Shown here in pieces: positions 9,142-39,011 of a stretch of 64,000 nt of DNA (positions are counted from its first letter, which is position 1; each line of letters opens with the position of its first letter). Source of the stretch: a virus (lineage: Duplodnaviria; Heunggongvirae; Uroviricota; Caudoviricetes); IMG/VR virus record IMGVR_UViG_3300020049_016248; one strand, written 5' to 3'. A model generated the notes under the pieces. The model searched no databases. It saw only the letters and a list, made by a program, of their open reading frames with translations, and was not told the origin of the DNA. A program made the translations under genes and the position numbers.

Positions 9142-10668
9142 ATGTTCATTGGTTATATCGTCAACGACTTTCACCCTTGTTTGAAAACAATCAGTGAAAG
9201 TGAAATTGGAAAATATACAAACGATAAACCTATTTTAATTGTAGGTTTCGATAAAGCTTATGAGCTTTACCCTTCAATAACTCTTGAAAGCAAAGTTATT
9301 GACTCTTCTAAACAAATATTTTACTCCTTTTCTTTTCAAGAAGCTGAAGACAAGTATAAAGAAAATTTAAGAAATTTTTTAAATCATTGTTTTCAACTTT
9401 TCATTAATTCCTATAAAGTTATTCCTATTGTAGATGTTTCAGAGTTTAAACATTTGAAAGGGGAAGTTTTCTACTATGAAACTGCAACACTTATTACAGT
9501 TACTACCAGTAATAAGATTTACTACTTCAACAAAGAAATAATTACTTTCTTAAACCCTGATAGTTTAGATTTACTTTTAGATAAGTTGCAAGGTGCAAAT
9601 ATTATTTCTTGGGAAAAGTTTACTTTTATTCAAAGTTATTTAAAAGCTAATAATTGTTACAAGTCTAAAGAACAGATTAGATTAGAATATGCTAATGTTG
9701 GAGATGTCGATTTGTATCTAGGGGCAATGTGTTTAGATAGTTTGGTTAATTTGAATTTAGCAAACAAGTCAATAGATACTTGGCAACGAGCATATGAAAT
9801 TGAAACTTATTTATCTTCAATTAGAATTAAAGTTAACGAAGAGCTTTTGAAAAACTTAGCTTCTGATGAAGAGAACACTGTTGCACAAAGTATTTACAGT
9901 AACTTGAACAAAGGTTACATTGTTCAAAGATATAACGGGACAGACAAGATAACAGGTAGAATTTTTGCAACTAAGTCTGGTTTTTCAGTTCAAACGTTAA
10001 CATCGAATATGAAAAACATTATAGTAGCAGAAAAAGACTGTCTATTAGTAGAGTTTGATTATCAATATTTTGAATACACATTACTATCACAATTATGTAA
10101 GTTTACTCTTGCAGTAGACCCTCATCTAGCTTTATCTCAATTGTTATTTAGTGATACTGCTCATAGAGCAATCGGAAAAGAAATTAACTACAGTTTATTG
10201 TATGGTAAGTCTATAAACACCTTGTTAAAGGATTTATATAAACAGTTTGAAATTCATATCCCTGAACAAGAGTTAAAAGATAAATTGTTAGAGGTGATCA
10301 AACCTATGGAAGAATTAAAACAACGTTTAATTCAAGAGTTTGAATCAAACAAGTTTATATTAAATTACTTTAATAGAAACATTACCCCAGATAAAAGTTA
10401 TAATTGTTTAAATAATTACATTCAATCAACAGCAACTGACTTTTTTATCATTAAGCTTTTGAAAATAAAAAAACTGTTAAGTAAATATTCCTCTTTAAAT
10501 CAAATCGTATTACAAAATCACGATTCAGTTTTATTAAACTTAACAGTTAGTGAAATTGAATCAACAGATTTAGTGAAAGAAATTTTTGCTATTCTAAGAG
10601 AAGAAGAAAATAGTCTAGTAGCAGAGGTAGACATGAAATATGGGAATAGTTGGGGTAATTTAAAGTAA
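9142..10668 (+). CDS. family A (Pol I-like) DNA polymerase, polymerase domain only (no exonuclease domain in this ORF)
   Basis: Motif A LLVEFDYQYFEYTLLSQL (DYSQIELR-like), motif B RAIGKEINYSLLYGKS (RRxAKxxNFGxxYG) and motif C LQNHDSVLL (VHDE) appear in the correct order and spacing. Confidence 0.65.
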   Translation: MFIGYIVNDFHPCLKTISESEIGKYTNDKPILIVGFDKAYELYPSITLESKVIDSSKQIFYSFSFQEAEDKYKENLRNFLNHCFQLFINSYKVIPIVDVSEFKHLKGEVFYYETATLITVTTSNKIYYFNKEIITFLNPDSLDLLLDKLQGANIISWEKFTFIQSYLKANNCYKSKEQIRLEYANVGDVDLYLGAMCLDSLVNLNLANKSIDTWQRAYEIETYLSSIRIKVNEELLKNLASDEENTVAQSIYSNLNKGYIVQRYNGTDKITGRIFATKSGFSVQTLTSNMKNIIVAEKDCLLVEFDYQYFEYTLLSQLCKFTLAVDPHLALSQLLFSDTAHRAIGKEINYSLLYGKSINTLLKDLYKQFEIHIPEQELKDKLLEVIKPMEELKQRLIQEFESNKFILNYFNRNITPDKSYNCLNNYIQSTATDFFIIKLLKIKKLLSKYSSLNQIVLQNHDSVLLNLTVSEIESTDLVKEIFAILREEENSLVAEVDMKYGNSWGNLK

Positions 10669-16376: not shown

Positions 16377-16421
16377 TTTGTAGTTTACAAGGTTTAAAGT
16401 ATCTTAAGGTAAAATTAAAAT

Positions 16422-18366: not shown

Positions 18367-18385
18367 TTAAATTATTTTAAATTAA

Positions 18386-18420
18386 GAACCTACGCTACGC
18401 GTAGGTTCTCCTTGTTTTTA
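18386..18420 (+). terminator. rho-independent terminator-like hairpin (gaacctacgc / gcgtaggttc) followed by a T-rich tract
   Basis: Perfect 10-bp stem with a 3-nt loop, then tccttgttttta. Confidence 0.6.
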
Positions 18421-18446
18421 ACGTTTTTTGTTATTTTCGGTAGGAA

Positions 18447-18472
18447 GTTTACAAGTTTAACCATATCTTTAG
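18447..18472 (+). promoter_or_regulatory. promoter-like motif GTTTAC-N11-TATCTTTAG (copy 2)
   Basis: Exact motif; followed by conserved ATTATAAATTAAAAC and an ATG at 18497. Confidence 0.5.
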
Positions 18473-18496
18473 ATTATAAATTAAAACATATAGCAA

Positions 18497-18834
18497 TGAG
18501 TTATAAAAAATTCAAAATGACTGAAGAAGAGTTTATCGATTATTGCGAATCTCTTACTGAACAAGAATTGAAAAGATTTCAATTAGAGTCAAAAAAGGAT
18601 GATATTCAAAGAGCACACCATTGGCTTTATATTGCATGTATTACAATGGTTTTAGCATCATTTTCTACAAACTGGGCTAAACATGTAGCAGATTCTACAT
18701 TATTATATGTTACTTGCTTTATAATTACAATAGTTTCAATTTTTTTCGTTTTCGGTTTACTTAAAAGAATAAAACAAGAAAAATTAATGTATAAAATGTT
18801 AGAAATTTTCTACAAAGAAAACAATATCCTTTAA
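18497..18834 (+). CDS. hypothetical membrane protein (the ORF-track start at 18412 is probably too early)
   Basis: First ATG downstream of the promoter-like motif; two TM helices. Confidence 0.45.
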
Positions 18835-18836
18835 TC

Positions 18837-19016
18837 ATGGCAAAGAAAAAAGAAATTATCAAATTTGACCCCGAAGAAGTTAGAAAAGGGTTAAAAGGTA
18901 TTCGCAGACAAGAAGAAATTGATAACCAATTGCGAATACCTACTCATACTGTTCAAAAAAGTAAAAAAGAATACACTCGTAAACGTAAACATAAGAAAAA
19001 TTTTGAAGTTGAATAA
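18837..19016 (+). CDS. small basic protein (59 aa)
   Basis: ATG 18837 to TAA 19014-19016. K/R-rich. Below the ORF-track length cutoff. Confidence 0.3.
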   Translation: MAKKKEIIKFDPEEVRKGLKGIRRQEEIDNQLRIPTHTVQKSKKEYTRKRKHKKNFEVE

Positions 19017-19032: not shown

Positions 19033-19066
19033 TAAAAAATAAATTTAAAGTTCTGAACCTCGCATT

Positions 19067-19086
19067 ACATATACACCTTGTTATAC
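19067..19086 (+). repeat. isolated 3' box ACACCTTGTTATAC (core-site-like GTTATAC) at the head of the array; possible attI-like boundary
   Basis: Almost identical to the 3' end of element D (tacaccttgttatatgc) and followed by the same cacggtttattaatg. Confidence 0.35.
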
Positions 19087-19144
19087 ACAGTACGGTTTAT
19101 TAATGTTGAATGCTGATACAAAGAATAATTAAAATTAAAAAAAT

Positions 19145-19477
19145 ATGCACAAACAAAAGGAAGTAAAAATAAATGTTGATGATAAAATACAACCACTAAT
19201 TCAATTTATATTTGATAGATTAACTGGTTTGATACCAATAGCATCTTGTATAGGTGGAGATGAATCACAAAACGAAAGTATGGATTGTTATATACTACTA
19301 ATAGTTAGGAATCATAATCATCTAAATCATCTAATGGATTTATGTTCATCTTGGCATTGTCAGTATATCAAACCAAATGGTGAAACTGGAAATGTACCAA
19401 CATATAGAATAAGTATTTCTAATTTAAACGATGTGTTGGATAAATTGAATTTGATAGATGAAAATTATATTTTTTAA
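19145..19477 (+). CDS. cassette-like small ORF 1, hypothetical
   Basis: 110 aa. Confidence 0.45.
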   Translation: MHKQKEVKINVDDKIQPLIQFIFDRLTGLIPIASCIGGDESQNESMDCYILLIVRNHNHLNHLMDLCSSWHCQYIKPNGETGNVPTYRISISNLNDVLDKLNLIDENYIF

Positions 19478-19591
19478 TTTACACCGAACTTAATTTGATA
19501 CACGAATATAGTATTGTGTATAACGTTCGGGCGGTTGGCGTTCGTTGCCGACTTTGGAACAAGAAACTTTAACTTTAAAAATAAATTTGAT

Positions 19592-19834
19592 ATGGAAAAC
19601 AAAACTTCAACAAGCCACGAAAACGGCAATGACGCTAACCGCTTGTTAGCACCAGTTATTTTTTGGCAACGCTTTGACCAAGTTAAACCACAAGGCGATG
19701 CGGAATATTTGGTGTGCAATACAGATGGCGTTATTCGAGTTAGTTACTTTGATGGCAAAGATTGGGGATATTTAGCTATTGTAAAAGAAAATATTACGCA
19801 TTGGTCAATACTTCCGAGTGTGCCAGTCATATAA
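19592..19834 (+). CDS. cassette-like small ORF 2, hypothetical (start moved to the first ATG)
   Basis: MENKTSTSHENG...; the ORF-track start at 19514 lies within the intergenic repeat. Confidence 0.4.
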   Translation: MENKTSTSHENGNDANRLLAPVIFWQRFDQVKPQGDAEYLVCNTDGVIRVSYFDGKDWGYLAIVKENITHWSILPSVPVI

Positions 19835-21402: not shown

Positions 21403-21474
21403 CTATAACGGTTCGCAGATAAGCGAAGGCAAAGATTTAGAAACTAAAATTTTAACTTAAAAACAGAATATAAT
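21403..21474 (+). repeat. degenerate or partial attC-like element F (CTATAACGG + short hairpin ttcgc/gcgaa + loop-like motif), no clear 3' box
   Basis: Shares the 5' box and the gaaactaaaattttaacttaaaa loop-like motif with element B. Confidence 0.35.
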
Positions 21475-21723
21475 ATGAAAACGAGAACATCAATTTACCA
21501 CCGCACCTTTGCTTTTGCTTATGTGCTGTTAGTAGCTGTTATTTTTTGCGGTTGCGAAGGTAACGTAGAGCAGAAATCAACACCATATAGGCTTAGTGGC
21601 GGTCTTAATGTAGAAATAGTGATAATTGATAGTTGCGAATACATCATAATAAATGGTGGAAATGCAACTTGGGGAAGCCACAAAGGGAACTGTAAATTTT
21701 GTGCAGAACGTAGCAAAAAATAA
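21475..21723 (+). CDS. cassette-like small ORF 7, putative secreted protein or lipoprotein
   Basis: N-terminal hydrophobic segment ending in CGCEGN. Confidence 0.45.
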   Translation: MKTRTSIYHRTFAFAYVLLVAVIFCGCEGNVEQKSTPYRLSGGLNVEIVIIDSCEYIIINGGNATWGSHKGNCKFCAERSKK

Positions 21724-21726
21724 TTG

Positions 21727-21823
21727 CTACTAACGTTTTGCGTATATACGAGGTACGCCTTAACGAAAATTTCAAATTATAAACAAATGCTTGTAGGCGT
21801 ATCTTGTATATACGCTGTTAGGC
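21727..21823 (+). repeat. attC-like element G (CTACTAACG...CTGTTAGGC)
   Basis: Arms gcgtatatacgaggtacgcc / ggcgtatcttgtatatacgc; 3' box GTTAGGC fits the integron core GTTRRRY. Confidence 0.55.
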
Positions 21824-22075: not shown

Positions 22076-22081
22076 TATTTC

Positions 22082-22161
22082 GCCTAACGGTATCAAGCTA
22101 AAAGCTGACCGCCTTTATAAGCGGTTTGGTGATGGCGGTTTGATTTTAGGTTGTGTTATAT
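22082..22161 (+). repeat. attC-like element H (GCCTAACGG...GTGTTATAT), more degenerate
   Basis: 5' box GCCTAAC fits the inverse-core RYYYAAC; internal hairpin accgcctttataagcggt. Confidence 0.4.
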
Positions 22162-22183
22162 TTAGGTTTTTAAATTTTTAGCG

Positions 22184-22393
22184 ATGGAAGAAATGATAAA
22201 TTGTAAATGCGAAAAATGCGGAGTTGATTACGAGAAACCTGCAACTTTCAAAAAATGGAATGAAGAAAATACAAACGTGTTTTTTAGATGGAGTTTAGCA
22301 TTTTGCGATATGTGCAGGCGAGAAAAAGAACGTGAAGCATTGAAAGCATTACCAAATGTTTTGAGTGCGTTGGCAGAAAATTTAAAAACTTGA
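22184..22393 (+). CDS. cassette-like small ORF 9, zinc-ribbon-like protein
   Basis: CKCEKCG...CDMCRRE, two CxxC pairs. Confidence 0.45.
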   Translation: MEEMINCKCEKCGVDYEKPATFKKWNEENTNVFFRWSLAFCDMCRREKEREALKALPNVLSALAENLKT

Positions 22394-22455
22394 ATATAAC
22401 ATAAATATATAACAACTGTCTTTTAAAACAGTAATAAAATTAACAGTTTTAAGTC

Positions 22456-23271
22456 ATGGAAACACTCATTGAAAGTAAAGTTAATCGATTTGTTGAAAAG
22501 TTAGAGTTAAAACGTTACTCTAAAAACACAAAAAATATATATCTTTCAAACTTTAAATCTTTTTTAAACTATTTTAAAGGAGATATAGATAATTTAAAAG
22601 ATTCAGATATTTGTAATTATATTTTAACACAATCTAAAAACAAGTCGTACTCTTATCAAAATGTGTTAACAAATACTATTAAATTTTATTACGAAAAGGT
22701 AAATTATAGAAAAAGAAGGTTTTATAAAATAGAAAGACCTAAACAAGAAAGAAAGTTACCACAAGTGATTTCTAAAGAAGAAGTTTTAAAATCTATAGAG
22801 TTAATACCTAATTTAAAACATAAAGCAATAATTTCACTAGCTTTTTCTACTGGAATGAGAGTAAGTGAGATATGTAATTTGAAAATAGTAGATATTGATT
22901 CAAAGAGAATGATTTTAAGAATTTTAGATAGTAAAGGTAAAAAAGATAGAATAGTTCCTTTATCTGAAAGTATACTAACTTTGTTGAGAAGTTATTGGCA
23001 AGAATATAAACCTAAATTTTATTTATTTGAATCCTATAAACCTGGGGTTAAATATTCGACAGCGAGTTGTAGACAAATATGGAATAAATATAAAATAAAT
23101 AAGCAAAGTACTTTTCACACTCTTAGACATAGTTTTGCTACAACTATGTTAGAAAATAAAACTGATATTAGGACAATTCAAAGACTTTTAGGTCATTCTA
23201 ATTTGAAAACAACAGAAATATATACCCACGTTTCTACTGATTATTTGAAAACTTTAAAGTTACCTATATAA
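22456..23271 (+). CDS. tyrosine site-specific recombinase (XerC/XerD-like size, 271 aa)
   Basis: Catalytic residues in order: R (GMRVSE), K, HxxR (HTLRHSFAT), H (LGHSNL), Y (EIYTHV). N-terminal SAM-like core-binding domain. Confidence 0.8.
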   Translation: METLIESKVNRFVEKLELKRYSKNTKNIYLSNFKSFLNYFKGDIDNLKDSDICNYILTQSKNKSYSYQNVLTNTIKFYYEKVNYRKRRFYKIERPKQERKLPQVISKEEVLKSIELIPNLKHKAIISLAFSTGMRVSEICNLKIVDIDSKRMILRILDSKGKKDRIVPLSESILTLLRSYWQEYKPKFYLFESYKPGVKYSTASCRQIWNKYKINKQSTFHTLRHSFATTMLENKTDIRTIQRLLGHSNLKTTEIYTHVSTDYLKTLKLPI

Positions 23272-23297
23272 ACATATTGATTTTATTAAGGTTTGAA

Positions 23298-23323
23298 GTT
23301 TACTAATTATACTGTATCTTTAG
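23298..23323 (+). promoter_or_regulatory. promoter-like motif GTTTAC-N11-TATCTTTAG (copy 3)
   Basis: Exact motif plus the conserved GTTATAAATTTAAAAC extension; ATG at 23347. Confidence 0.5.
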
Positions 23324-23346
23324 GTTATAAATTTAAAACCAATAAA

Positions 23347-23913: not shown

Positions 23914-23977
23914 AGCATTACCCAGGAAGTCGAAAAGGGGTATACTAGAGTAGACAATTACAAATATTTTTAAGAAT

Positions 23978-25608: not shown

Positions 25609-25944
25609 ATGAAAAAAATAACTTTCACAAACGTTTATATAAAACGAGTTTTCGATTCGACTTGCAGTATGTATTATATTGTGAAAGGTCAAGGATTACA
25701 TCATAATGGGTTAGTTTATCATCAAGAGTCTCGTTCTTGTCTAGAAACTTATTTTATTGCTAATATAAGTTACAACATTGATACAAAGACTTATCAACTT
25801 GAATCGAAAGATTCAGTTTTACCACCTACAATAGTACAAATTGCAGAATCAGGAGCTCGAGTTGCTGACCTTTTAAGAAAAGAAGGGTTTTACAGAGCAG
25901 AATATAGTTTACAAGGTTTCACTTTTTCAAACTTAAATAACTAA
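25609..25944 (+). CDS. hypothetical protein
   Basis: 111 aa. Confidence 0.45.
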   Translation: MKKITFTNVYIKRVFDSTCSMYYIVKGQGLHHNGLVYHQESRSCLETYFIANISYNIDTKTYQLESKDSVLPPTIVQIAESGARVADLLRKEGFYRAEYSLQGFTFSNLNN

Positions 25945-26459
25945 TGATAAAACCTAAGGTACCGTCTTTTTTTAAAGTGATAGCAATATCTATTATCTTT
26001 TCTTATTTCTTTGGAAAGCTTCAAAACAAAACAATTAATGTTTTAGAGTACCCTGTAAAGAAAGAAACTAATCTTTTTATTGAAAAAGAACTTACACCTT
26101 ATTTAGATACTTTTCTTCTTGAGTCTAAGTATTATAATTATTCCCCTTCTAGAGTTTTCTACCTAGATACAATCCAATACGGTGTTTTACCTGATGGTGT
26201 TGCTGGTCAAACTTCTCTTTCAATACGAAGAGATACATTGCATGGTGTAATAACAATCAGTAGTGAGTATAGTAAAGACCTTATAAACAGTCGGCAGATA
26301 TTTTACCATGAAGTAGGGCATTGGTTAGGTTTAGAACATGAACAAAACATTATTATGATAGAAGGTTACGATTTCACTGATACTTCTTGGGTTAATATGT
26401 TTGGAAGAAACTGGGAAACTTTAACATACCAATATTTTAAATCTCTCAAAGCTCTATAA
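25944..26459 (+). CDS. membrane-anchored zinc metalloprotease (metzincin-like HExxHxxGxxH)
   Basis: FYHEVGHWLGLEHEQN, with an N-terminal hydrophobic anchor. Confidence 0.65.
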   Translation: MIKPKVPSFFKVIAISIIFSYFFGKLQNKTINVLEYPVKKETNLFIEKELTPYLDTFLLESKYYNYSPSRVFYLDTIQYGVLPDGVAGQTSLSIRRDTLHGVITISSEYSKDLINSRQIFYHEVGHWLGLEHEQNIIMIEGYDFTDTSWVNMFGRNWETLTYQYFKSLKAL

Positions 26460-26515
26460 CTTACGCTGCGCGTAGATTTCTCTTATTTTCATTTTTTTGT
26501 TATTTTTAGTAGGAA

Positions 26516-26541
26516 GTTTACTAATTTAACTGTATCTTTAG
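26516..26541 (+). promoter_or_regulatory. promoter-like motif GTTTAC-N11-TATCTTTAG (copy 4)
   Basis: Exact motif; preceded by the short palindrome tacgc-tgc-gcgta; ATG at 26579. Confidence 0.5.
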
Positions 26542-26578
26542 GTATCTTAATTAATCAAACAACCTAAACTTACAATTT

Positions 26579-29379: not shown

Positions 29380-29451
29380 GCGTTCTTAGCTGAGGTGGTT
29401 TAGCATTTGGTTGAAGCCCAAAAGACACTGGTTCGACTCCAGTAGATCGCA
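29380..29451 (+). tRNA. tRNA-Phe (anticodon GAA)
   Basis: Hand-folded cloverleaf: acceptor gcgttct/agatcgc (one T-T mismatch), D-arm gctg-aggtggtt-tagc, anticodon arm tttgg-ttGAAgc-ccaaa, T-arm actgg-ttcgact-ccagt. Confidence 0.6.
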
Positions 29452-29457
29452 CAATAT

Positions 29458-29531
29458 GATTCTGTAGCTCAGTTGAATAGAGCAATTGCCTTCTAAGCAA
29501 TAGGTCAAAGGTTTGAATCCTTTCAGAATCA
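29458..29531 (+). tRNA. tRNA-Arg (anticodon TCT)
   Basis: Acceptor gattctg/cagaatc perfect; D-arm gctc-agttgaata-gagc; anticodon arm attgc-ctTCTaa-gcaat; T-arm aaagg-tttgaat-ccttt. Confidence 0.8.
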
Positions 29532-29543
29532 CTTAAAATAAAT

Positions 29544-29625
29544 GCCGACGCGCTAACGTTGGAGGGTTAGGACAGTCTGTAAAACTGTTACATAAGTCTA
29601 GTAGGTTCGAATCCTATCGGCGGCA
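29544..29625 (+). tRNA. tRNA-Tyr (anticodon GTA), class II with long variable arm
   Basis: Acceptor gccgacg/cggcggc (one mismatch); anticodon arm acagt-ctGTAaa-actgt; 12-nt variable region; T-arm gtagg-ttcgaat-cctat. Confidence 0.65.
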
Positions 29626-29707
29626 CTAGCAGAACACAACTGCTGAAACAAATAGGTGATTCAGTTATCGGTGAGCAAGTCTGAACTAAAACAAAATGTT
29701 GCTTAAT

Positions 29708-29784
29708 GGACATATAGCTCAGCTGGTAGTAGCAAATGATTGTTAATCATTAGGTCGTAGGTTCGAACCCTACTATGTCCGCCA
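29708..29784 (+). tRNA. tRNA-Asn (anticodon GTT), CCA encoded
   Basis: Acceptor ggacata/tatgtcc perfect; anticodon arm aatga-ttGTTaa-tcatt; T-arm gtagg-ttcgaac-cctac; followed by gcca. Confidence 0.8.
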
Positions 29785-29793
29785 AGTAAACAA

Positions 29794-29879
29794 GCGAGTG
29801 TCGCATAGAGCCCGATTGCACCTGACTTCCAATCAGGAAAGATAAAATCACAACGCAGGTTGAAATCCTGTCGCTCGCT
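29794..29879 (+). tRNA. atypical tRNA-like gene (anticodon loop reads TCC = Gly, but 17-nt variable region, 3-bp D-stem and non-canonical T-loop ttgaaat)
   Basis: Acceptor gcgagtg/cgctcgc with a G-U pair; anticodon arm cctga-ctTCCaa-tcagg; unusual for a Gly tRNA. Possibly a pseudo-tRNA or non-canonical tRNA. Confidence 0.35.
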
Positions 29880-29923
29880 CTCAGCCAGTTGTTAAATCTG
29901 GTGAAAATTAAAACTTAACAAAC

Positions 29924-29996
29924 GCAAAAATAGCTCAATTGGTAGAGCGTTGCCTTGCCAAGGCAAAGGTTGTGAGTTCGAGACTCATTTTTTGCT
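29924..29996 (+). tRNA. tRNA-Gly (anticodon GCC)
   Basis: Acceptor gcaaaaa/tttttgc perfect; D-arm gctc-aattggtag-agc; anticodon arm ttgcc-ttGCCaa-ggcaa; T-arm gtgag-ttcgaga-ctcat. Confidence 0.75.
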
Positions 29997-29997
29997 C

Positions 29998-30114
29998 TGT
30001 GATATAGCTCAGCTGGCAGAGCGGCCCCGTGTAAAGGGGAAGGTCGTGGAATAAGTGAAAACTTGTTGCTTCTATATACGTATAGAATTGGGTGTTCGAA
30101 TCCCACTGTCACAA
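29998..30114 (+). pseudogene. tRNA-like gene interrupted by a ~45-nt insertion carrying a palindrome (ttctatatacgtatagaa) between the variable region and the T-loop; anticodon loop reads GTA
   Basis: Canonical 5' half tgtgata-ta-gctcagctggcagagc-g-gcccc-gtGTAaa-gggga-aggtc. Canonical 3' end ttcgaatcccac-tgtcaca pairs with the 5' acceptor including a G-U. The T-stem 5' strand is displaced by the inserted sequence. Confidence 0.4.
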
Positions 30115-30129
30115 CTAAAAAATAAAATT

Positions 30130-30324
30130 ATGTGGTCTGAAGATCAAGTGAAAGAATTCGTTCACAAGAGAGTTAAAGAGTTGTCAACAAACCCTTCTGC
30201 AATTGCTTTAGGGTCTTATTACAAAGGTTGTGATTGGCGCTTTGATAAGTTAAGAGCTTTTTGTGAACAGGAAGTAAAAAATTATACGCAAGAACTATTA
30301 AGAAAGAAACAACAAAAAACATGA
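30130..30324 (+). CDS. hypothetical protein (start adjusted to the first ATG after the tRNA-like gene)
   Basis: MWSEDQVKEF...; the ORF-track start at 30055 lies inside the tRNA-like sequence. Confidence 0.4.
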   Translation: MWSEDQVKEFVHKRVKELSTNPSAIALGSYYKGCDWRFDKLRAFCEQEVKNYTQELLRKKQQKT

Positions 30325-30542
30325 GTAACGTTTATAGTAAATTAGATAGGTTAAATCAATTGGAAGATGAAAATATAAAAAGTTTTGTTAAATTAGCAAG
30401 ACGTGTTTTAAAAACTAAAAATCCAAGTAGAGATGTGCCTGAATATTTTCAGAAAGATAAAAAAGTAAAAAAAGAAATTAAAAAAATGAGAACAAAAGCA
30501 ATAATAAAGAAATCTAAGAAACCTGACGAACAGGGCACTTAA
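30321..30542 (+). CDS. small basic hypothetical protein
   Basis: 73 aa, K-rich, overlaps the previous stop. Confidence 0.4.
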   Translation: MSNVYSKLDRLNQLEDENIKSFVKLARRVLKTKNPSRDVPEYFQKDKKVKKEIKKMRTKAIIKKSKKPDEQGT

Positions 30543-30567
30543 CTATTGTTTAAATTCTAAACGAATA

Positions 30568-30602
30568 ACCCAAGTGTCTTAGTTGATAACTTGGGTTTTC
30601 TT
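30568..30602 (+). terminator. rho-independent terminator (acccaagt ... acttgggt + TTTT)
   Basis: 8-bp perfect stem with a 13-nt loop, followed by ttttctt. Confidence 0.6.
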
Positions 30603-30704
30603 ATGCTTCTATGGCGAGAAGGGCGCGCAATATACTTTTTATCAAAGGGAATATTTCTAACTTGAACTATATTTAATAGAAAACAACTTAAACGTAGTTC
30701 GATA

Positions 30705-31316
30705 ATGAAATGTCAAAGTGTAAAATGTGAAAAAGAGCATGATGGTAAATATGGGAGCGGGAAATATTGCTCAAGACAATGTGCTAATAGTAGAACTTGG
30801 TCAGAGGAAGATAAGTTAAAAAAATCCAATTCTGCTAAAAATAGCAAAAAAGTTTTAACTCGAAGTTGTGAATGTTTATATAAATTAAAAGCTGCAGCGT
30901 TAAAAAAAAGTGAAAAAGCAAAGGAGGAAATTTTAATAGCGAATTGGGAAGATCTATCTTTTGAACGATTAAGAAAAAGAGTTATTTGGGAACAAAACGA
31001 ATGTTGTGCAACTTGTGGGATAAGTGAGTGGAGAGGAAAAAAAATTTCACTAGAATTAGAACATAAAGATGGAAACCATTCGAATAACGCAAAGGAAAAC
31101 TTAGAAGCATTATGTCCAAACTGTCATAGTTTAACAACTACTTGGAGAGGGAGAAATAAATCAAGAAAAGTAAAAAAAATCTCAGATGAAGATCTATTAA
31201 TATCTTTAATTGAAAACAATTGGAATATGAGACAAGCTTTACTTAATCTTAATTTAGCTGCAAAAGGAAGTAATTATAAAAGATGTCATAGGGTAAAAAG
31301 AATGATAGATTCTTAA
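30705..31316 (+). CDS. HNH homing endonuclease inserted in the tRNA region
   Basis: N-terminal CxxC zinc finger; C-terminal LELEHKDGNHSNNAKENLEALCPNCH is an HNH motif. Confidence 0.75.
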   Translation: MKCQSVKCEKEHDGKYGSGKYCSRQCANSRTWSEEDKLKKSNSAKNSKKVLTRSCECLYKLKAAALKKSEKAKEEILIANWEDLSFERLRKRVIWEQNECCATCGISEWRGKKISLELEHKDGNHSNNAKENLEALCPNCHSLTTTWRGRNKSRKVKKISDEDLLISLIENNWNMRQALLNLNLAAKGSNYKRCHRVKRMIDS

Positions 31317-31326
31317 TAAAACACAT

Positions 31327-31355
31327 GGGTGATGGTTCGATTCCATCTAGGAGCA
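31327..31355 (+). pseudogene. orphan tRNA 3' fragment (T-arm gatgg-ttcgatt-ccatc + acceptor 3' strand taggagc + a)
   Basis: Perfect T-arm and 7-nt acceptor strand 11 nt after the HNH stop codon. No matching 5' half was found within 160 bp upstream of the HNH gene. Confidence 0.5.
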
Positions 31356-31434
31356 CTCAGGTTTGAACTTTGATTATTTGAGCATTGACAAGGTCAATTA
31401 GACCTAACAAGATAGCTGAGTAAATAATCATTAT

Positions 31435-31507
31435 GACCTCGTAGCTCAATTGGCGGAGCACTATACTTTTAATATAGGGGTTATGGGTTCAAGTCCCATC
31501 GGGGTCA
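31435..31507 (+). tRNA. tRNA-Lys (anticodon TTT)
   Basis: Acceptor gacctcg/cggggtc with one G-U; D-arm gctc-aattggcgg-agc; anticodon arm ctata-ctTTTaa-tatag; T-arm atggg-ttcaagt-cccat. Confidence 0.8.
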
Positions 31508-31561
31508 CAATTATTTTTATTTCTTACCTAGGGTTATATTCCTATAACTTATGGGTTTTTA

Positions 31562-32214: not shown

Positions 32215-32215
32215 T

Positions 32216-33442
32216 ATGAAATCACAACTTTTTATCCCTAAAAAATGTAAAGTAGGTTTTAACCTACGCCAAGATACTTACACTGGTAAGTTAGGTTATA
32301 TCATTATGCATGATGGTAAAGTATGGAGAAAAGAAAATTCTTGGGAAGGGTGGAGAGAAAAAGAAGCTACTGAAGAATTAAAAAATAAATATTTAGAAAA
32401 TTACGAGTTACAATATCATAAAAGAAACCCTGAGCATTACCCTGTTATTACTTCATTTGAAGAATTACCTCGTTGGTGTAAAGGTAAAATTGCTGAAGGT
32501 GTAGTTCCGATAGAATTTGATAATACTCCTACAGAAGGTTTTGTTTTAAATAGAAAAGCTGGTGGAGAGAATTGGGGTTGGAATCCAAGACAAACTTATT
32601 GTAGAGTTTATGACCCAAGAGGTTTTGAGTTTGAAATCACAATTCAAAATTTACTTTTCATTTTACAAGAAACAAACTCTATTAAAGGAAAAGGACTTGA
32701 AGGTCAATTCGTTTATTCTTGGGATAAAAAAGATCTTGTTTTATTACCAGTAGGTTGTCAAGAGTATAAATCATCTTCTGGATTTACTTCTTTGCAAGAT
32801 AAAAAAATTGAATTGAAAACCCTTATTGAAGGAGCAGTTTACAAAACAAAAAAAGAAGAATCAGTTATTTATTTAGGTAAATTTGATTGGTGGGAATGGA
32901 AACGTATAACGACAAACACATCAACTAAAGGTTTATTTTCTCATCACTTCTCTGAAACTTTCTCAACTAGAGATAAGAAAAAGAAATTAATTTTCTTCGA
33001 CTTAAAAGCAAACACATTTGTTTCTTACGATAAAGTAGACAAGTTAGCAGAATGTATTAACGATACACCAGTTTCTAATTATGCTGAATTAGTAAGTAAT
33101 TACTTGAAGAGCAAACATGGAATGGTTATTGAAGAGTTAGTTGTAGAACCTTTGAAAGAACCTTTGAAAATAGGTTCTTATAATCAAGTTGCTTTAAAGA
33201 AAGGTGAAGACTTGTTTTGGGGTTATTTACATACTCATTATGGTCTAAATTCAAGTGGGTGTTACCAAGCTTCCTTATCAACTAAAGTTATCTTAGAAAA
33301 AAATAAAATTATACAAAGAGAAAACTATAACGAAATTGTTACTGTTCCTAAAGATGAATTAGAAACTTCAGCTGGTAAGTTTGTTACAATTGTTGCAGTA
33401 AACAGTCAAGGTGAAAGATACATTTTCAACGAATTACGTTAA
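32216..33442 (+). CDS. hypothetical protein, paralog A of a two-member family (with 33991..35226)
   Basis: Shares the N-terminal motif KVGF..R.DTYTGKLGY.I....KVWRKE.SW.GWR and the central CRVYD.RGFEFEITI.NL.FIL with paralog B. Confidence 0.55.
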   Translation: MKSQLFIPKKCKVGFNLRQDTYTGKLGYIIMHDGKVWRKENSWEGWREKEATEELKNKYLENYELQYHKRNPEHYPVITSFEELPRWCKGKIAEGVVPIEFDNTPTEGFVLNRKAGGENWGWNPRQTYCRVYDPRGFEFEITIQNLLFILQETNSIKGKGLEGQFVYSWDKKDLVLLPVGCQEYKSSSGFTSLQDKKIELKTLIEGAVYKTKKEESVIYLGKFDWWEWKRITTNTSTKGLFSHHFSETFSTRDKKKKLIFFDLKANTFVSYDKVDKLAECINDTPVSNYAELVSNYLKSKHGMVIEELVVEPLKEPLKIGSYNQVALKKGEDLFWGYLHTHYGLNSSGCYQASLSTKVILEKNKIIQRENYNEIVTVPKDELETSAGKFVTIVAVNSQGERYIFNELR

Positions 33443-33990: not shown

Positions 33991-35226
33991 ATGAACACAA
34001 AATTGTACATCCCACAACTTATTAAAGTTGGTTTTCAAAAAAGAGACGACACTTATACAGGTAAGTTAGGTTATGTTATCTATCGTGATGATAAAAAGGT
34101 TTGGAGGAAGGAAAAATCATGGAATGGTTGGAGAGATGAAAAGGTAAAACCCGTTGAGTTAGAAAACGTTCCTCATTCTGGATTTCATCTTAACAAAGGT
34201 GTAGAAAGATATGGATATTGGGGAAGTGGTCGAAGTATGTGTCGTGTTTATGATGACCGTGGATTTGAATTCGAAATTACAATTGATAACCTTATGTTTA
34301 TTTTAATGGGTTCAGATTGTTCAAAGAGAGAATTAGCTGGTGAATTTGTTTACTCATGGAATGGGATGGAACTTGTTTTATTACCAGTAAACTCTCAAGA
34401 ATATGAAGAGTCTAAAAAGTTTACTTCTTTACAAGGTGGAAAAGTAAATACGAAAGACCTTATTGAAGGTGCGACATATGTTACAAAAAAGGGAAGTAAA
34501 TTAATTTACTTAGGTAAGTTTAATGTAAATTCTTTTAAGCAAATATACTCTTCTCATCATAGATCAAGTAAAAAGATTGCAAGTTTTGCAATGAAATATG
34601 TTTTCCACACAGCAGAAAGAGCTGAAAGTGATTATGAACTTGAAAGTTATATATTTGACCATACTTTCCAATATAAAGATACAAAGTTTATTTTCTTTAA
34701 TGATTTAGACAAGTTAGCTAATTGTATTGTAGAAGAACCTACAGAGAATTATTCTAAATATGTAGATGAATTTTTAAAAACATCATGGGGTTCTAAAATT
34801 ACAAATGTAGAAACTCAAACAATTACAGGTGAAGAAATATTACATTCTTCAAAAAGTAGCAAACCGTATTATCATTCTTCAAGAGAAGAAAGTGGGTATA
34901 ACCTTAAAGATAGAAAAGATTTTATAGGGGAAGCGTTTGAATATGTTAGTGAAAATACATATAGACATATTCAAATTCATGTTCTCAAAGTATTTGTCAA
35001 AGATGATGTAAGTTATTCTTACGGTAAGATGAAACAGACAGGTTACGCATTAACTTCAACAAAAATTGTTAATTTTAATGGAACTGAAATTAACGTCAAA
35101 AACAATTCAAAGAAAGATGACAAAGTGTACACAGAAAAGGAAATAAATTCTTTGTTGTTGCATAAATTAAATCTATCTTTAGAATGCAATTCAAAACACC
35201 CATTAAGTTTTATAAATAAATTTTAA
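33991..35226 (+). CDS. hypothetical protein, paralog B of 32216..33442
   Basis: Conserved blocks as listed for paralog A; C-terminal half diverged. Confidence 0.55.
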   Translation: MNTKLYIPQLIKVGFQKRDDTYTGKLGYVIYRDDKKVWRKEKSWNGWRDEKVKPVELENVPHSGFHLNKGVERYGYWGSGRSMCRVYDDRGFEFEITIDNLMFILMGSDCSKRELAGEFVYSWNGMELVLLPVNSQEYEESKKFTSLQGGKVNTKDLIEGATYVTKKGSKLIYLGKFNVNSFKQIYSSHHRSSKKIASFAMKYVFHTAERAESDYELESYIFDHTFQYKDTKFIFFNDLDKLANCIVEEPTENYSKYVDEFLKTSWGSKITNVETQTITGEEILHSSKSSKPYYHSSREESGYNLKDRKDFIGEAFEYVSENTYRHIQIHVLKVFVKDDVSYSYGKMKQTGYALTSTKIVNFNGTEINVKNNSKKDDKVYTEKEINSLLLHKLNLSLECNSKHPLSFINKF

Positions 35227-37016: not shown

Positions 37017-38600
37017 ATGTATACAACAAACGAAAAAGGAGCTAAAACCTTAGCTACAAGTGGGAAAAACAGTTTAGATTACTTTGCAAACATTGGAACT
37101 TATCGCAATCGTAATGTAAAACAAGTAGCTGCAGATATGGCTAAAGCTTGGAAAGAAGATCCTATGTTAGCTTTATCAATATTGTTTTATGCTCGTATGA
37201 TTACTCGTAAAACAAAAGGAGCGTTTGTTTCTGATAAAGTACAAAAAGGTCAAGGTATTAAAGATGAATTTATAAAAGGTTTACAATACCTTGAAGCAAA
37301 TCACCCTTCAGTATTAGAGAAAAATTTATGGATTGTTCCTCTAGTAGGATCTTGGAAAGATTTATGGTATGACTCTGCATGCACAGGGCACTATCACTAT
37401 ATTATGCCTGAAAAAGTTTACGAGTTAATTAGACAAAGTATTCTTACAGATGAATACAATGGAGCTTTAATTGCAAAATACTTACCTCGTATTCGTTCAG
37501 CAAAACAAATAAAGAATGACAGACATAAACGTATGAATAAATGGGCGTTAGGTCTATGTTCATACTTAGGTTGGAATCAAAAACATTATCGTCAGTTTAA
37601 AGCAGATCCAGCTAAAATTGCTCATTCATGGCAAAGAAAAATGAGTGCTAAAAATTGGGATGAAATTGACTTTAGCAAAATCCCAGGTCGTGCTTTATTT
37701 CAAATGGTAAACAACACAGGGAAAGACGGAAAAACTTTATTACAAAGACATGGTTTAGAAGCTAAGTATGAAGCTTGGTTAGATACTCAACCTACAGCTA
37801 AATTTACAGGTTATGTTTACGAGTTGTTTTTACAAACAAAGCAACATAAAATATCTGCAGTGAAAAGAAAAACTTTAGACAAGCAATTTGATGGTTTATT
37901 GGCTTTAGCTAAAGCAGACGGTGTTGAAGGATTGAAAGGAAACGTTTGGTGTGCATTAGATACATCTAGTTCAATGGAATGTGGAGCAGTTGGTGAAAAC
38001 GGGGTTACAGCGTATGATGTGTGTATATCTTTAGGACTTTACTTTTCATCTTTAAACGAAGGTGCATTTAAAGATCATGTTGTAATGTTTGATGAAAAAT
38101 CTAAAGTTTTAAAATTATCAGGAGGTTTTGTTGAAAAAGCAAAACAAATAAGAATGGCATCAACAGCATGGGGTAGCACTAATTTTCAATCTGTAGTTGA
38201 TGAAATTGTACGTGTACGAAAAGCTAACCCTGCAATTCCAATTTCAGAATTCCCAGAAACTTTATTAGTAGTTTCAGATATGCAATTTGATAAAGCTGGA
38301 AAAAACACAAAAACTAATTACGAAGTTATGATGAAAAAATTATCTAATGTTGGATTAGGTAATATAAAAGTAATCTGGTGGCAAGTAAGTGGTAGAAGTG
38401 AAAAGAACGTTCCAAGCAAGTTTGATGATGACGGAGTGACACTAATTTCTGGTTTTGATCCTGCTATTATTTCCTTAATTTTAGGAGGTGAGAAGAGCAA
38501 AGTGGATGAAGTTACTGGTAAAACAAGAGCTTTAACACCATATGAAAATATGATGAAAGCTTTAGACCAAGAGGTTTTAAAACAATTAAAGATTGATTAA
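37017..38600 (+). CDS. vWA (MIDAS) domain protein
   Basis: VWCALDTSSSMEC (DxSxS) followed by a predicted Rossmann-like segment and VVSDMQFDKAG. Confidence 0.55.
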   Translation: MYTTNEKGAKTLATSGKNSLDYFANIGTYRNRNVKQVAADMAKAWKEDPMLALSILFYARMITRKTKGAFVSDKVQKGQGIKDEFIKGLQYLEANHPSVLEKNLWIVPLVGSWKDLWYDSACTGHYHYIMPEKVYELIRQSILTDEYNGALIAKYLPRIRSAKQIKNDRHKRMNKWALGLCSYLGWNQKHYRQFKADPAKIAHSWQRKMSAKNWDEIDFSKIPGRALFQMVNNTGKDGKTLLQRHGLEAKYEAWLDTQPTAKFTGYVYELFLQTKQHKISAVKRKTLDKQFDGLLALAKADGVEGLKGNVWCALDTSSSMECGAVGENGVTAYDVCISLGLYFSSLNEGAFKDHVVMFDEKSKVLKLSGGFVEKAKQIRMASTAWGSTNFQSVVDEIVRVRKANPAIPISEFPETLLVVSDMQFDKAGKNTKTNYEVMMKKLSNVGLGNIKVIWWQVSGRSEKNVPSKFDDDGVTLISGFDPAIISLILGGEKSKVDEVTGKTRALTPYENMMKALDQEVLKQLKID

Positions 38601-38801: not shown

Positions 38802-39011
38802 ATGTTTACCAAGTCTTTAAAAAGGTTAGGTAAATCTAACCTTTTTTATTTTTTTATTATGAAAGACAAAGATATAGAACATTTATTTGAACAACAAGTT
38901 CAATTTCACAAAAAACAAGCAGCATCTGCAAAGCGAGGGGCTTCAGTTTGGTTAGCACTTACAATCATATGGGTAGTAGCTATGCTTATAGCCTGTGCTA
39001 CACTAATTTAA
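38802..39011 (+). CDS. small membrane protein
   Basis: 69 aa, C-terminal TM helix. Confidence 0.35.
   Translation: MFTKSLKRLGKSNLFYFFIMKDKDIEHLFEQQVQFHKKQAASAKRGASVWLALTIIWVVAMLIACATLI

What the first reader, a model, noticed from the sequence alone, without database searches (positions are those of the whole stretch)
22456..23271. Tyrosine recombinase gene closing the cassette array in an otherwise virulent-looking phage
A 271-aa tyrosine recombinase with a complete R-K-HxxR-H-Y catalytic set lies immediately after the last cassette-like ORF, on the same strand. No other lysogeny functions are visible and the surrounding content (tRNAs, homing endonucleases, T4-like replisome) is typical of lytic phages. 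Its placement suggests it services the repeat array (cassette integrase) and not prophage integration. Its XerD-like size, without the ~20-aa insertion typical of IntI, would make it a non-canonical cassette recombinase if so.
Basis: partly seen in the sequence, partly recalled or inferred. Interest (0 to 1): 0.6.

Follow-up and report, generated by a model that had tools for sequence, protein, structure and literature searches.

The report
Phage integron with Xer-like integrase
A small Xer-type recombinase gene in a large lytic-style phage closes a row of hairpin-flanked mini-genes, and comparison with about 80 related phages indicates that it swaps these mini-genes in and out as a bacterial integron does, although it lacks the protein segment regarded as essential for integron integrases.

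Summary
The ORF 22456-23271 (+) is real. It encodes a 271-aa tyrosine recombinase with a full catalytic set. It is colinear with archaeal XerA and lacks the ~46-aa IntI-specific insertion.

Upstream on the same strand lie eight attC-like imperfect palindromes (19.5-22.2 kb), one per small ORF. They occur nowhere else in the 64 kb.

In 77 related viral contigs, all 202 covariance-model hits lie upstream of the recombinase gene and 200 are on its strand. No flanking gene is shared with the window. Stems covary: 17 of 23 pairs show compensatory changes.

A conserved attI-like motif (TAAC-TAT-TATATATAAA; window 22397) sits about 55 nt before the start codon. Near-identical phages carry different last cassettes joined exactly at this TAAC. 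In 10 of 10 close pairs, homology running from int stops 0-11 nt from it. The same cassette is attI-adjacent in one phage and internal in another.

The layout differs from integrons: [hairpin-ORF]n, then attI, then int, all co-directional, with crossover at R'' and a top-strand folding bias.

Flavobacteriaceae chromosomes carry a homologous system in another layout. Published phage "CALINs" (P12002L) have the same sites without the enzyme. No description was found in the searched literature, and nothing has been tested experimentally.

The parts
18385..18409 (+). Intrinsic-terminator-like hairpin with a T-run. It ends the preceding QueC-like gene and marks the upstream limit of the transcription unit that holds the array.
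   Evidence: 11-bp stem, 6 GC pairs, T-rich tail
18420..18486 (+). Promoter-like intergenic element (TTTACA-N16-TAGATT at 18448-18475). It is the putative promoter for the array plus int. A paralogous copy lies right after int.
   Evidence: (repeats D2/D4). Function is inferred only.
18496..19016 (+). Two leader ORFs (112 aa membrane-like, 59 aa) with no detectable site between them. Whether they are cassettes is unknown.
19066..19086 (+). Lone right half-site (ATACACCTTGTTATAC). It is identical to the right arms of sites S4 and S5, and the left arm is missing.
   Evidence: (D13)
19145..19477 (+). Small ORF, 110 aa, no known family
19521..19648 (+). Site S1, long class (128 nt), weak. The start codon of the next ORF (19592) lies in its loop.
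   Evidence: (22.9 bits, E=0.06)
19592..19834 (+). Cassette ORF, 80 aa
19842..19928 (+). Site S2 (87 nt): TAAC-GGTTG-stem...stem-TT-GTTA
   Evidence: z=-4.3; 88.8 bits
19944..20099 (+). Cassette ORF, 51 aa
20112..20198 (+). Site S3 (87 nt)
   Evidence: 77.1 bits
20217..20474 (+). Cassette ORF, 85 aa
20472..20559 (+). Site S4 (88 nt)
   Evidence: 100.4 bits
20598..20930 (+). Cassette ORF, 110 aa
20963..21049 (+). Site S5 (87 nt)
   Evidence: z=-6.6; 91.3 bits
21097..21396 (+). Cassette ORF, 99 aa
21406..21531 (+). Site S6, long class (126 nt), not in the CM training set. Its loop and right arm encode the start and signal peptide of the next ORF.
   Evidence: (30.4 bits, E=0.002)
21475..21723 (+). 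Cassette ORF, 82 aa, lipoprotein-like (phrog_19356)
21731..21820 (+). Site S7 (90 nt)
   Evidence: 89.4 bits
21836..22075 (+). Cassette ORF, 79 aa, with one TM segment
22085..22158 (+). Site S8, short and degenerate (74 nt), not in the CM training set
   Evidence: 36.4 bits, E=1.4e-4
22184..22393 (+). Last cassette ORF, 69 aa, Zn-ribbon-like. Other sequences take its place in the otherwise 99.4-99.5% identical contigs L167 and L168.
22397..22455 (+). attI-like fixed site: TAAC-ATAAA-TATATAAC, then the palindrome ACTGTcTTTT/AAAACAGT and a third ACAGT. The cassette junction is at TAAC 22397-22400.
22456..23271 (+). int: 271-aa Xer-like tyrosine recombinase (R135 K160 H221 R224 H247 Y256) without the IntI insertion
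23271..23337 (+). Second copy of the promoter-like intergenic element. It starts the next transcription unit and so marks the downstream limit of the module.
   Evidence: D2, 72% identity to 18420-18486

Best explanation
The gene encodes the dedicated site-specific recombinase of a phage-borne, integron-like cassette platform.

The platform is one co-directional unit: promoter, then [hairpin site + small ORF] x n, then a fixed attI-like site (TAAC-TAT-TATATATAAA type), then int.

Each mobile unit runs from the C of one R'' box (xTAA|C) through the hairpin and its ORF to the ATTGnnnn-TAA that precedes the next site. When circularised it would rebuild a complete site.

Int is proposed to bind the R box (TAAC/GTTA) and the L box (TAT/ATA-containing stem) of the folded site, cleave at TAA|C, and exchange strands with the attI-like site or with another hairpin site. 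This would insert, excise and replace cassettes next to its own gene.

Shown by computation: the linkage of int and sites, the structural conservation of the sites, the attI-like motif, and cassette-replacement junctions exactly at TAAC.

Inferred only: that Int is the catalyst; that the substrate is the folded top (ORF-sense) strand as ssDNA; that resolution is replicative as in integrons; and that the cargo gives the phage accessory or counter-defence functions.
For: - Window: the CM finds 8 sites only at 19.5-22.2 kb, all on +, one per small ORF. Three of them were not in the training set.
- Linkage: in 77 viral loci encoding 42-62% identical Ints, all 202 CM hits (E<=1e-3) are upstream of int and 200 are on the same strand. 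An independent detector gives 189 upstream same-strand sites against 2 downstream, with 0-5 in shuffles. Of 55 loci with at least 1.5 kb upstream, 49 have sites, and density rises toward int.
- No shared context: none of 13 window flanking genes occurs within 10 kb of int in any of the 77 loci.
- Structure: 17 of 23 pairs show compensatory changes, including pairs outside the detector's requirement.
- Strand bias: G.T wobbles are conserved, and the top strand is more stable in 167 of 182 sites. The same polarity bias holds in bacterial arrays where sites are antisense to the ORFs, 27 against 4.
- attI-like motif: present in nearly all loci, with its TAAC about 55 nt before the ATG.
- Junctions: the window, L167 and L168 have three different last cassettes joined at TAAC 22397. 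One cassette is attI-adjacent in L070 but followed by a hairpin in L008, and L047/L060 show the same pattern. In 10 of 10 close pairs, homology from int ends 0-11 nt from TAAC and the arrays beyond differ.
- Cassette transfer: a cassette protein is 95% identical between phages whose Ints are 60% identical.
- Phylogeny: array-linked viral Ints form one NJ clade.
- Published data: Qi et al.'s P12002L_attC1 belongs to this site family and was the one phage site of six that IntI1 failed to recombine.
Against: - There is no experimental or read-level evidence of circles or recombination products. All inference comes from assembled contigs.
- Loci were retrieved through Int similarity, so the association was measured from the Int side only. 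P12002L has sites of the family but no tyrosine recombinase. The sites can therefore persist without a cis-encoded enzyme, or may have another role.
- One variant pair (L161/L162) breaks in the loop of S3 and not at TAAC.
- In L021/L039, homology continues through the next hairpin to just past its GTTA.
- In phages the top strand is also the mRNA strand, so part of the folding bias could act at RNA level.
- The IntI insertion is reported as essential for integron recombination, so attC-type recombination without it is unproven.
- The NJ tree has no support values.
- The viral status of the IMG/VR contigs was checked for only a few loci.
Confidence: 0.78

Rival explanations
1. Ordinary lysogeny integrase. 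Int integrates the phage into a host attB (for example a tRNA gene), and the TAAC site is attP.
For: PHROGs and GenBank annotations call relatives 'integrase'. Simple arm-less tyrosine integrases such as Brujita exist. Host Flavobacteriaceae chromosomes carry homologous sites that could in principle serve as attB.
Against: The sequences left of the TAAC junction in L167, L168, L008 and L070 are themselves cassettes (hairpin plus small ORF) and not host DNA. There is no arm-binding domain and no tRNA fragment of 12 nt or more. Replication and recombination genes are of the lytic T4 type. The closest array-less phage relative, Ingeline, has a separate 398-aa integrase next to an HTH regulator for lysogeny.
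Confidence: 0.04
2. Xer/Cre-like resolvase. Int resolves phage genome multimers at a single dif/lox-like site. The hairpins are unrelated regulatory elements (terminators or mRNA stabilisers, comparable to the PeSL regulatory cassettes of T4-type phages) that are shuffled by homologous recombination.
For: The protein is Xer-like and colinear with XerA. The int-proximal region holds a palindrome (ACTGTcTTTT/AAAACAGT). In phages the hairpins are on the mRNA-sense strand with G.U-compatible wobbles. UvsX-type recombination is available. P12002L has the sites but no Int.
Against: This does not explain why sites occur only upstream and on the same strand in 202 of 202 cases while all other neighbouring genes differ. 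Junctions fall at a 4-nt core between otherwise unrelated sequences (attI against hairpin), which homologous recombination cannot produce. The folding bias follows site polarity even where sites are antisense to the ORFs. The hairpins lack terminator T-runs.
Confidence: 0.1
3. Decaying or inactive remnant. The array and int were captured from a bacterial integron-like element and no longer function in phages.
For: A homologous chromosomal system exists in Flavobacteriaceae and Ignavibacteriota. Some window sites (S1, S8) are degenerate, and a half-site remains at 19066.
Against: Catalytic residues are invariant in an alignment of the window protein with 15 homologues (5 phage-type, 10 bacterial), and full-length int ORFs of 265-273 aa recur in the viral loci. 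The phage layout, attI motif and TAAC cores form a coherent phage-specific variant. Nearly identical phages differ in their terminal cassette, which indicates recent activity.
Confidence: 0.05

Closest known systems
Integrons (IntI + attI + attC cassette arrays; e.g. class 1 and the Vibrio chromosomal integron, VchIntIA structure 2A3V)
   Same: A tyrosine recombinase of the Xer/IntI branch lies next to a fixed insertion site and an array of single-ORF cassettes. The cassettes are separated by imperfect palindromes whose structure, not sequence, is conserved. The R boxes share the invariant AAC/GTT (TAAC...GTTA(G/T) against RYYYAAC...GTTRRRY), there is an unpaired central spacer, and folding is strand-biased. 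The cargo is extremely diverse and mostly ORFan.
   Different: Int lacks the IntI additional domain. int lies at the promoter-distal end and is co-oriented with the cassettes. The hairpin precedes its ORF, and long sites contain the ORF's start codon. Crossover maps to R'' (top-strand TAA|C) and not to R'. The ORF-sense strand folds better. The spacer is a 5 x 2-nt asymmetric loop with conserved G.T wobbles in place of extrahelical bases. The host replicon is a lytic-type jumbo phage.
CALINs (attC clusters lacking an integrase) in virulent phages, Qi et al. 2023, Front Microbiol, PMC9892861
   Same: Polaribacter phage P12002L carries 5-6 sites of this same family, and their 'P12002L_attC1' is one of them. 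The paper established that attC-like sites occur in lytic phages.
   Different: That paper treats the sites as orphan integron components able to interact with bacterial IntI1. It never mentions Xer, and P12002L has no annotated tyrosine recombinase. P12002L_attC1 was the one site IntI1 did not recombine. Here a dedicated phage recombinase and an attI-like site are identified.
XerA / XerC-XerD chromosome-dimer resolvases acting at dif
   Same: These are the best sequence and structure matches (XerA 4A8E at 141 bits, 5HXY as Foldseek top hit). They share the size, the two-domain architecture and the RKHRHY active site.
   Different: The protein scores below the curated cut-offs of XerA, XerC and XerD. 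It is linked to multi-site arrays and not to one dif. It is encoded by a phage.
Flavobacteriaceae / Ignavibacteriota chromosomal int -> [ORF-site]n arrays found here (L108 Algibacter, L080 Winogradskyella, L129). The layout resembles the reverse-orientation integrase integrons reported for Spirochaetota.
   Same: The Ints are homologous (37-51% identity) and also lack the insertion. The site architecture is homologous, including the flank motif, 5-nt spacer, TAT/ATA L box and G.T wobbles. Site polarity points toward int in both.
   Different: In bacteria int is upstream with its 3' end facing the array, the ORFs precede their sites, and the cores are mostly CAAC/GTTG. The Ints have a ~100-aa N-terminal extension. 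No cassette was shared with the phage arrays in this sample. I found no publication describing this bacterial system either.
PeSL 'mobile regulatory cassettes' of T4-type phage hyperplastic regions (own knowledge: Arbiol et al. 2010, not checked here)
   Same: Small novel ORFs in a large lytic phage are each flanked by a repeated promoter/stem-loop motif thought to promote modular shuffling.
   Different: PeSL shuffling is attributed to homologous recombination with no dedicated recombinase. Here a site-specific recombinase, an attI-like site and exact 4-nt junctions are present.

Membership tests
Integron (sensu IntegronFinder / Mazel) | Integrase is a tyrosine recombinase carrying the IntI-specific additional domain (I2 helix region around patch III) | tested here: not met
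   Query 178-210 aligns to IntI4 178-256, so about 46 aa are missing. TIGR02249 scores 167.8, below the cut-off of 265, and matches in two stretches. The model has no extra helix. Foldseek needs 304 columns for IntI4 against 270 for XerA.
Integron (sensu IntegronFinder / Mazel) | attC sites: imperfect palindromes with R''/L''/L'/R' boxes, conserved AAC...GTT, and structure conserved more than sequence | tested here: met
   TAAC...GTTA cores are present, and 17 of 23 pairs show compensatory changes. The CM is specific to the array. IntegronFinder's own attC model could not be run.
Integron (sensu IntegronFinder / Mazel) | attI site adjacent to the integrase gene where cassettes are inserted | tested here: met
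   A conserved TAAC-TAT-TATATATAAA motif lies 5' of int. Cassette-replacement junctions fall at its TAAC. Insertion activity itself is inferred.
Integron (sensu IntegronFinder / Mazel) | Pc promoter in intI/attI reading into the cassettes; each cassette is an ORF followed by attC; intI is usually divergent | tested here: not met
   Cassette ORFs point toward int. The hairpin precedes its ORF, and the ORF start lies inside the long sites. The promoter-like element is at the far end, 18448.
Integron (sensu IntegronFinder / Mazel) | The bottom strand (relative to the ORFs) is the folded recombinogenic strand, marked by extrahelical bases, with crossover at R' G|TT | tested here: not met
   The top strand is more stable in 167 of 182 sites. 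Junctions are at R'' TAAC. Asymmetry comes from a 5 x 2 loop and G.T wobbles. Which strand is actually used cannot be tested here.
XerA / XerC / XerD dimer resolvases | Score at or above the curated equivalog cut-off (NCBIfam NF040815, TIGR02224, TIGR02225) | tested here: not met
   206.7 against 220; 166.1 against 335; 162.5 against 330
XerA / XerC / XerD dimer resolvases | Simple two-domain tyrosine recombinase with an R-K-H-R-H-Y active site | tested here: met
XerA / XerC / XerD dimer resolvases | Acts at one dif-like site per replicon to resolve multimers | not testable with these tools
   The context (multi-site array, variable junction) argues otherwise.
Phage attP/attB integrases (lambda-like, heterobivalent) | N-terminal arm-binding domain; attP with a core shared with host attB (often a tRNA 3' end); an adjacent lysogeny module | tested here: not met
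   Only SAM-like and catalytic domains are present in 271 aa. The longest tRNA match near int is 11 nt. No repressor or excisionase was seen in the surveyed ORFs. The rest of the genome outside the window is not available.
CALIN (cluster of attC sites lacking integron-integrase) | At least 2 attC sites detected by the IntegronFinder model, with no IntI within 4 kb | not testable with these tools
   IntegronFinder and HattCI are not available. HattCI did call a family member in P12002L.

The most novel reading that the evidence does not exclude
A previously unrecognised class of integron operates in virulent, mostly jumbo, phages of Bacteroidota, with a sister version in Flavobacteriaceae and Ignavibacteriota chromosomes. 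It is run by a minimal Xer-like recombinase without the IntI domain. It recombines hairpins folded from the ORF-sense strand at R'' with an attI-like site placed just before its own gene. It would be a general engine by which lytic phages acquire, lose and exchange small accessory genes, possibly counter-defence genes such as the methyltransferases in P12002L, and it might trade cassettes with host arrays.
Probability: 0.6. Interest if true: 0.92.

Novelty: new variant of a known kind. Interest (0 to 1): 0.86.

Why it matters
Integrons are viewed as bacterial (recently also archaeal) devices defined by IntI and its extra domain.

A widespread phage-encoded analogue run by a plain Xer-like enzyme would show three things:
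- Structure-specific cassette recombination does not need that domain, or it arose more than once from Xer.
- The hypervariable small-gene regions of large lytic phages have a concrete, testable mechanism.
- The orphan attC clusters already reported in virulent phages have a missing enzyme.

It would also define a compact recombinase/site pair (271 aa; sites of ~87 nt) that could serve as a tool. And it would offer a way to mine phage cassettes for anti-defence genes.

Tried and rejected
- Near-identity DNA search of the region against deposited phages found nothing. The best deposited protein relative is only 40% identical (Cellulophaga phage Ingeline) and has no sites.
- My first simple detector reported no sites in the Flavobacteriaceae chromosomal loci. 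The covariance model overturned this, so the early idea that bacterial homologues are array-less Xer proteins was dropped.
- A first breakpoint analysis using all HSPs was dominated by site-to-site similarity and was uninformative. Restricting to long HSPs left few informative pairs.
- A metagenome scan for the window's exact attI sequence only re-found a known contig.
- The exact consensus attI motif in viral contigs was mostly chance AT-rich matches. Among the 91 loci held from that scan, 10 lay directly upstream of an int homologue.
- Cassette ORFs gave no Pfam or PHROG function.
- No cassette was shared between the phage and bacterial arrays sampled.
- Rfam has no family for the hairpins.
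- ViennaRNA energies were wrong in two runs because empty sequences were included. This was fixed.
- No tRNA or attP signature was found.
- Six literature searches found no description of a Xer-like integrase paired with attC-like arrays in phages or Flavobacteriaceae.
Full report
OBSERVATION

The ORF 22456-23271 (+) exists as described. It encodes a 271-aa protein with Pfam Phage_integrase (E=2.6e-38) and an N-terminal SAM-like domain.

In an alignment with 15 homologues, R135, K160, H221, R224, H247 and Y256 are invariant.

NCBIfam places it nearest the XerA-type model 'site-specific tyrosine recombinase/integron integrase' (206.7 bits, cut-off 220). The integron-integrase model scores 167.8 (cut-off 265, two stretches), XerC 166 and XerD 162. 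All are below cut-off.

Against solved structures it aligns end to end with archaeal XerA (4A8E, 141 bits). Against VchIntIA (2A3V) the alignment breaks: query 178-210 corresponds to IntI 178-256, so about 46 residues of the IntI-specific region are missing.

An AlphaFold model (pLDDT 87) shows no extra helix there. Foldseek ranks XerA first, colinear, and IntI4 second with extra gap columns.

The surroundings are those of a large lytic-style phage: T4-like DNA polymerase, UvsX-like recombinase, DnaB-like helicase, RNR, HNH endonuclease, a QueC-like gene and seven tRNAs. The identical protein is recorded on contigs up to 219.6 kb.

THE ARRAY IN THE WINDOW

Reading the sequence shows that the small + strand ORFs upstream are separated by imperfect palindromes of the form ATTGnnnn(C/A)TAAC-G(G/T)Tnn-[stem]-loop-[stem]-T(T)-GTTA(G/T).

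As single strands they fold into four elements: a 5-7 bp base stem, an asymmetric internal loop (5 nt against 2 nt), a 12-bp stem followed by further pairs, and a ~34-nt loop.

A covariance model built from 46 non-identical sites was run with filters off over the whole 64 kb and both strands. It finds sites only between 19523 and 22166, all on +. These are the five training sites plus three independent ones: 22077-22166 (36.4 bits), 21407-21530 (30.4 bits) and 19523-19646 (22.9 bits). That makes one site per small ORF.

In the two long sites, the start codon of the following ORF lies in the loop and the right arm encodes its N-terminus.

The cassette ORFs are ORFans in Pfam and PHROGs.

A strong terminator (18385-18409) and a promoter-like element (18448-18475) precede the region. 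A paralogue of that element follows int directly. Array and int therefore look like one transcription unit, which is an inference.

LINKAGE OF int AND SITES

A scan of IMG/VR gave 77 loci encoding relatives at 42-62% identity.

A simple structural detector found 189 sites upstream on the int strand against 2 downstream, with 0-5 in shuffled upstream DNA. Of 55 loci with at least 1.5 kb upstream, 49 had sites, and density increased toward int.

The CM gave 202 hits at E<=1e-3. All are upstream of int and 200 are on its strand.

None of 13 genes flanking the module in the window has a homologue within 10 kb of int in any of these loci. The only things that travel together are int and the sites.

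Other loci carry phage replication genes nearby.

In a neighbour-joining tree, all array-linked viral Ints (265-273 aa) form one clade apart from 80 bacterial and archaeal homologues. Ingeline's array-less protein falls just outside. The tree has no support values, and the viral sampling was by similarity to the query.

THE SITES ARE STRUCTURE-CONSERVED

In the 46-site alignment, RNAalifold predicts 23 pairs and 17 of them show double compensatory changes. These include pairs beyond the 11 bp that my detector had required, for example columns 33/87 with UA 25 and GC 20.

Positions outside the search pattern are also conserved:
- T at -7 of R'' in 96% of sites.
- G after TAAC in 93%.
- T before GTTA in 97%.
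- ATA in L' in 94%.

Site lengths are bimodal, about 87 and about 124 nt.

Two G.T wobbles are nearly invariant on the top strand (45/46 and 44/46). With a strand-symmetric detector, the top strand is more stable in 167 of 182 sites under DNA parameters (p~1e-28).

AN attI-LIKE SITE AND EXACT JUNCTIONS

The 130 nt before the start codon carry a conserved motif in nearly all loci: xTAAC-(T/A)A(T/C)-TATAT(A/G)TAAA. The window version is TAAC-ATAAA-TATATAAC at 22397.

The identical Int occurs on 13 contigs from several samples. L167 and L168 are 99.4-99.5% identical to the window from 22396/7 rightward but have unrelated sequence to the left. The join is exactly at TAAC, and the left part of L167 is itself a hairpin right arm plus a small ORF.

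In another lineage, a 1-kb block ending ...GAGTGATAAC is followed by the attI-like sequence and int in L070. In L008 the same block is followed by a hairpin and three more cassettes, and L008's own attI is the same as L070's. L047/L060 show the same pattern.

Among nine closely related loci, in 10 of 10 pairs homology running from int stops 0-11 nt left of the T of this TAAC, and in 7 pairs within 0-1 nt. The arrays beyond share nothing at 85% identity apart from that one block.

A 64-aa cassette protein is 95% identical between phages whose Ints are 60% identical, and the shared block starts at its R''.

The mobile unit is therefore [C-hairpin-ORF-...ATTGnnnnTAA], with crossover in or next to TAAC of R''.

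MECHANISM

By analogy with integrons, Int would bind the R and L boxes of the folded site and the attI-like site, cleave at TAA|C and exchange one strand pair.

The geometry relative to int and attI matches integrons if the locus is flipped: crossover is at the int-distal R box. The ORFs, however, are inverted. They read toward int, and the hairpin is 5' of its ORF.

For a hairpin substrate, a tyrosine recombinase cleaves 5'-arm|spacer. Crossover at R'' therefore implies the top strand, which fits the wobble bias. This step is inferred.

An RNA-level explanation of the bias is weakened by the bacterial arrays. There the sites are antisense to the ORFs, yet the strand with the same polarity toward int is still the more stable one, 27 against 4. 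The caveat is that the CM partly chose the orientation.

RELATIVES AND PRIOR KNOWLEDGE

The CM showed that Flavobacteriaceae chromosomes (Algibacter L108, Winogradskyella L080, L078, L081, Gilvibacter L105) and an Ignavibacteriota MAG (L129) carry int -> [ORF-site]n arrays. Their sites are homologous (mostly CAAC/GTTG cores), and their Ints also lack the insertion.

Integron surveys report almost nothing in Bacteroidetes.

The tyrosine-recombinase classification notes an 'integron-like subgroup' in which the insertion is 'not fully conserved ... but essential for integron function'. Archaeal integrons were defined by that domain.

Qi et al. 2023 reported attC clusters without an integrase in virulent phages, including Polaribacter phage P12002L, and never mention a Xer-like partner. 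I find that P12002L has 5-6 sites of this family, each 5' of a same-strand gene, several of them DNA methyltransferases, and no tyrosine recombinase. Their P12002L_attC1 is one of these sites. It was the only one of six phage sites that IntI1 did not recombine.

Six full-text searches found no description of the system. The library covers open-access papers and bioRxiv only.

RIVALS AND CAVEATS

Prophage integration is unlikely. The junction partners are cassettes, there is no arm-binding domain, and there is no tRNA fragment.

A Xer-type resolvase with unrelated regulatory hairpins does not explain the one-sided, same-strand linkage or the 4-nt junctions between unrelated sequences.

Unexplained items remain:
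- The L161/L162 breakpoint lies in the loop of S3.
- In L021/L039, homology runs on through the next hairpin.
- A lone half-site sits at 19066.
- It is not known what bounds the arrays on the promoter side.
- P12002L keeps the sites without Int.

Nothing here is experimental.

VERDICT

The element works like an integron but fails several defining features: the IntI domain, the cassette polarity, the crossover box and the folded strand. I therefore file it as a new variant of a known kind. Interest is high.

Noticed in passing
window 18420-18486, 23271-23337, 16382-16408, 25905-25919, 26458-26554: A promoter-like intergenic repeat (AGTTTACAAG...TATCTTTAGATTATAAAT) recurs at several gene-cluster starts. 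Two copies bracket the array plus int unit.
   Followed up: partly
L108 9656-20526; also L078, L080, L081, L105, L129, L151: Flavobacteriaceae and Ignavibacteriota chromosomes carry a ~316-379-aa insertion-less Int followed by co-directional ORF-site arrays with homologous hairpins (CAAC/GTTG cores). This is an apparently undescribed chromosomal integron-like system.
   Followed up: partly
L274 (Polaribacter phage P12002L, NC_028924) 30000-30064, 30901-30963, 32215-32289, 38027-38098, 38871-38944, 39123-39244, minus strand: An isolated virulent phage has 5-6 sites of the same family, each 5' of a gene (several are DNA methyltransferases), but no tyrosine recombinase. One of the sites is Qi et al.'s P12002L_attC1, which IntI1 failed to recombine.
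   Followed up: yes
L161 1-175 and L162 1-159, against window 20154: Two independent assemblies of the same phage diverge from the window inside the loop of site S3 and keep only its right half. The crossover model does not explain this.
   Followed up: partly
window 19066-19105: A lone right half-site (ATACACCTTGTTATAC) is followed by ACGGTTTATTAATG, the same sequence as after site S4. It looks like a remnant of a duplicated cassette 5' end.
   Followed up: no
window 66-2324 and 9142-10668: The DNA polymerase appears fragmented. ORF 66-2324 matches only positions 391-1035 of the PHROG polymerase profile, and a second ORF 7 kb away has a weak polymerase match. HNH endonuclease genes are nearby.
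   Followed up: no
window 32216-33442 and 33991-35226: Two tandem paralogous genes of ~410 aa belong to the same unknown-function PHROG (phrog_2475).
   Followed up: no
window 29380-31508: A cluster of seven tRNA genes: Phe, Arg, Tyr, Asn, Gly x2, Lys.
   Followed up: no
window 23920-23956: A weak sub-threshold Rfam match to the DUF805b RNA motif (22.5 bits against 35.6 gathering).
   Followed up: no
L158 (Cellulophaga phage Ingeline) 1-181 and 8959-9750: Ingeline has two integrases. One is a 398-aa integrase beside an HTH regulator (lysogeny-type). The second is a 263-aa Xer-like protein, the closest deposited relative of the window protein, with no hairpin sites nearby.
   Followed up: partly
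L094 769-909 and 5068-5208 (Calditrichales chromosome): Two CM hits lie upstream of the int homologue on its own strand. This is the phage-like polarity, found in a bacterial chromosome, and could be a prophage or a different layout.
   Followed up: no
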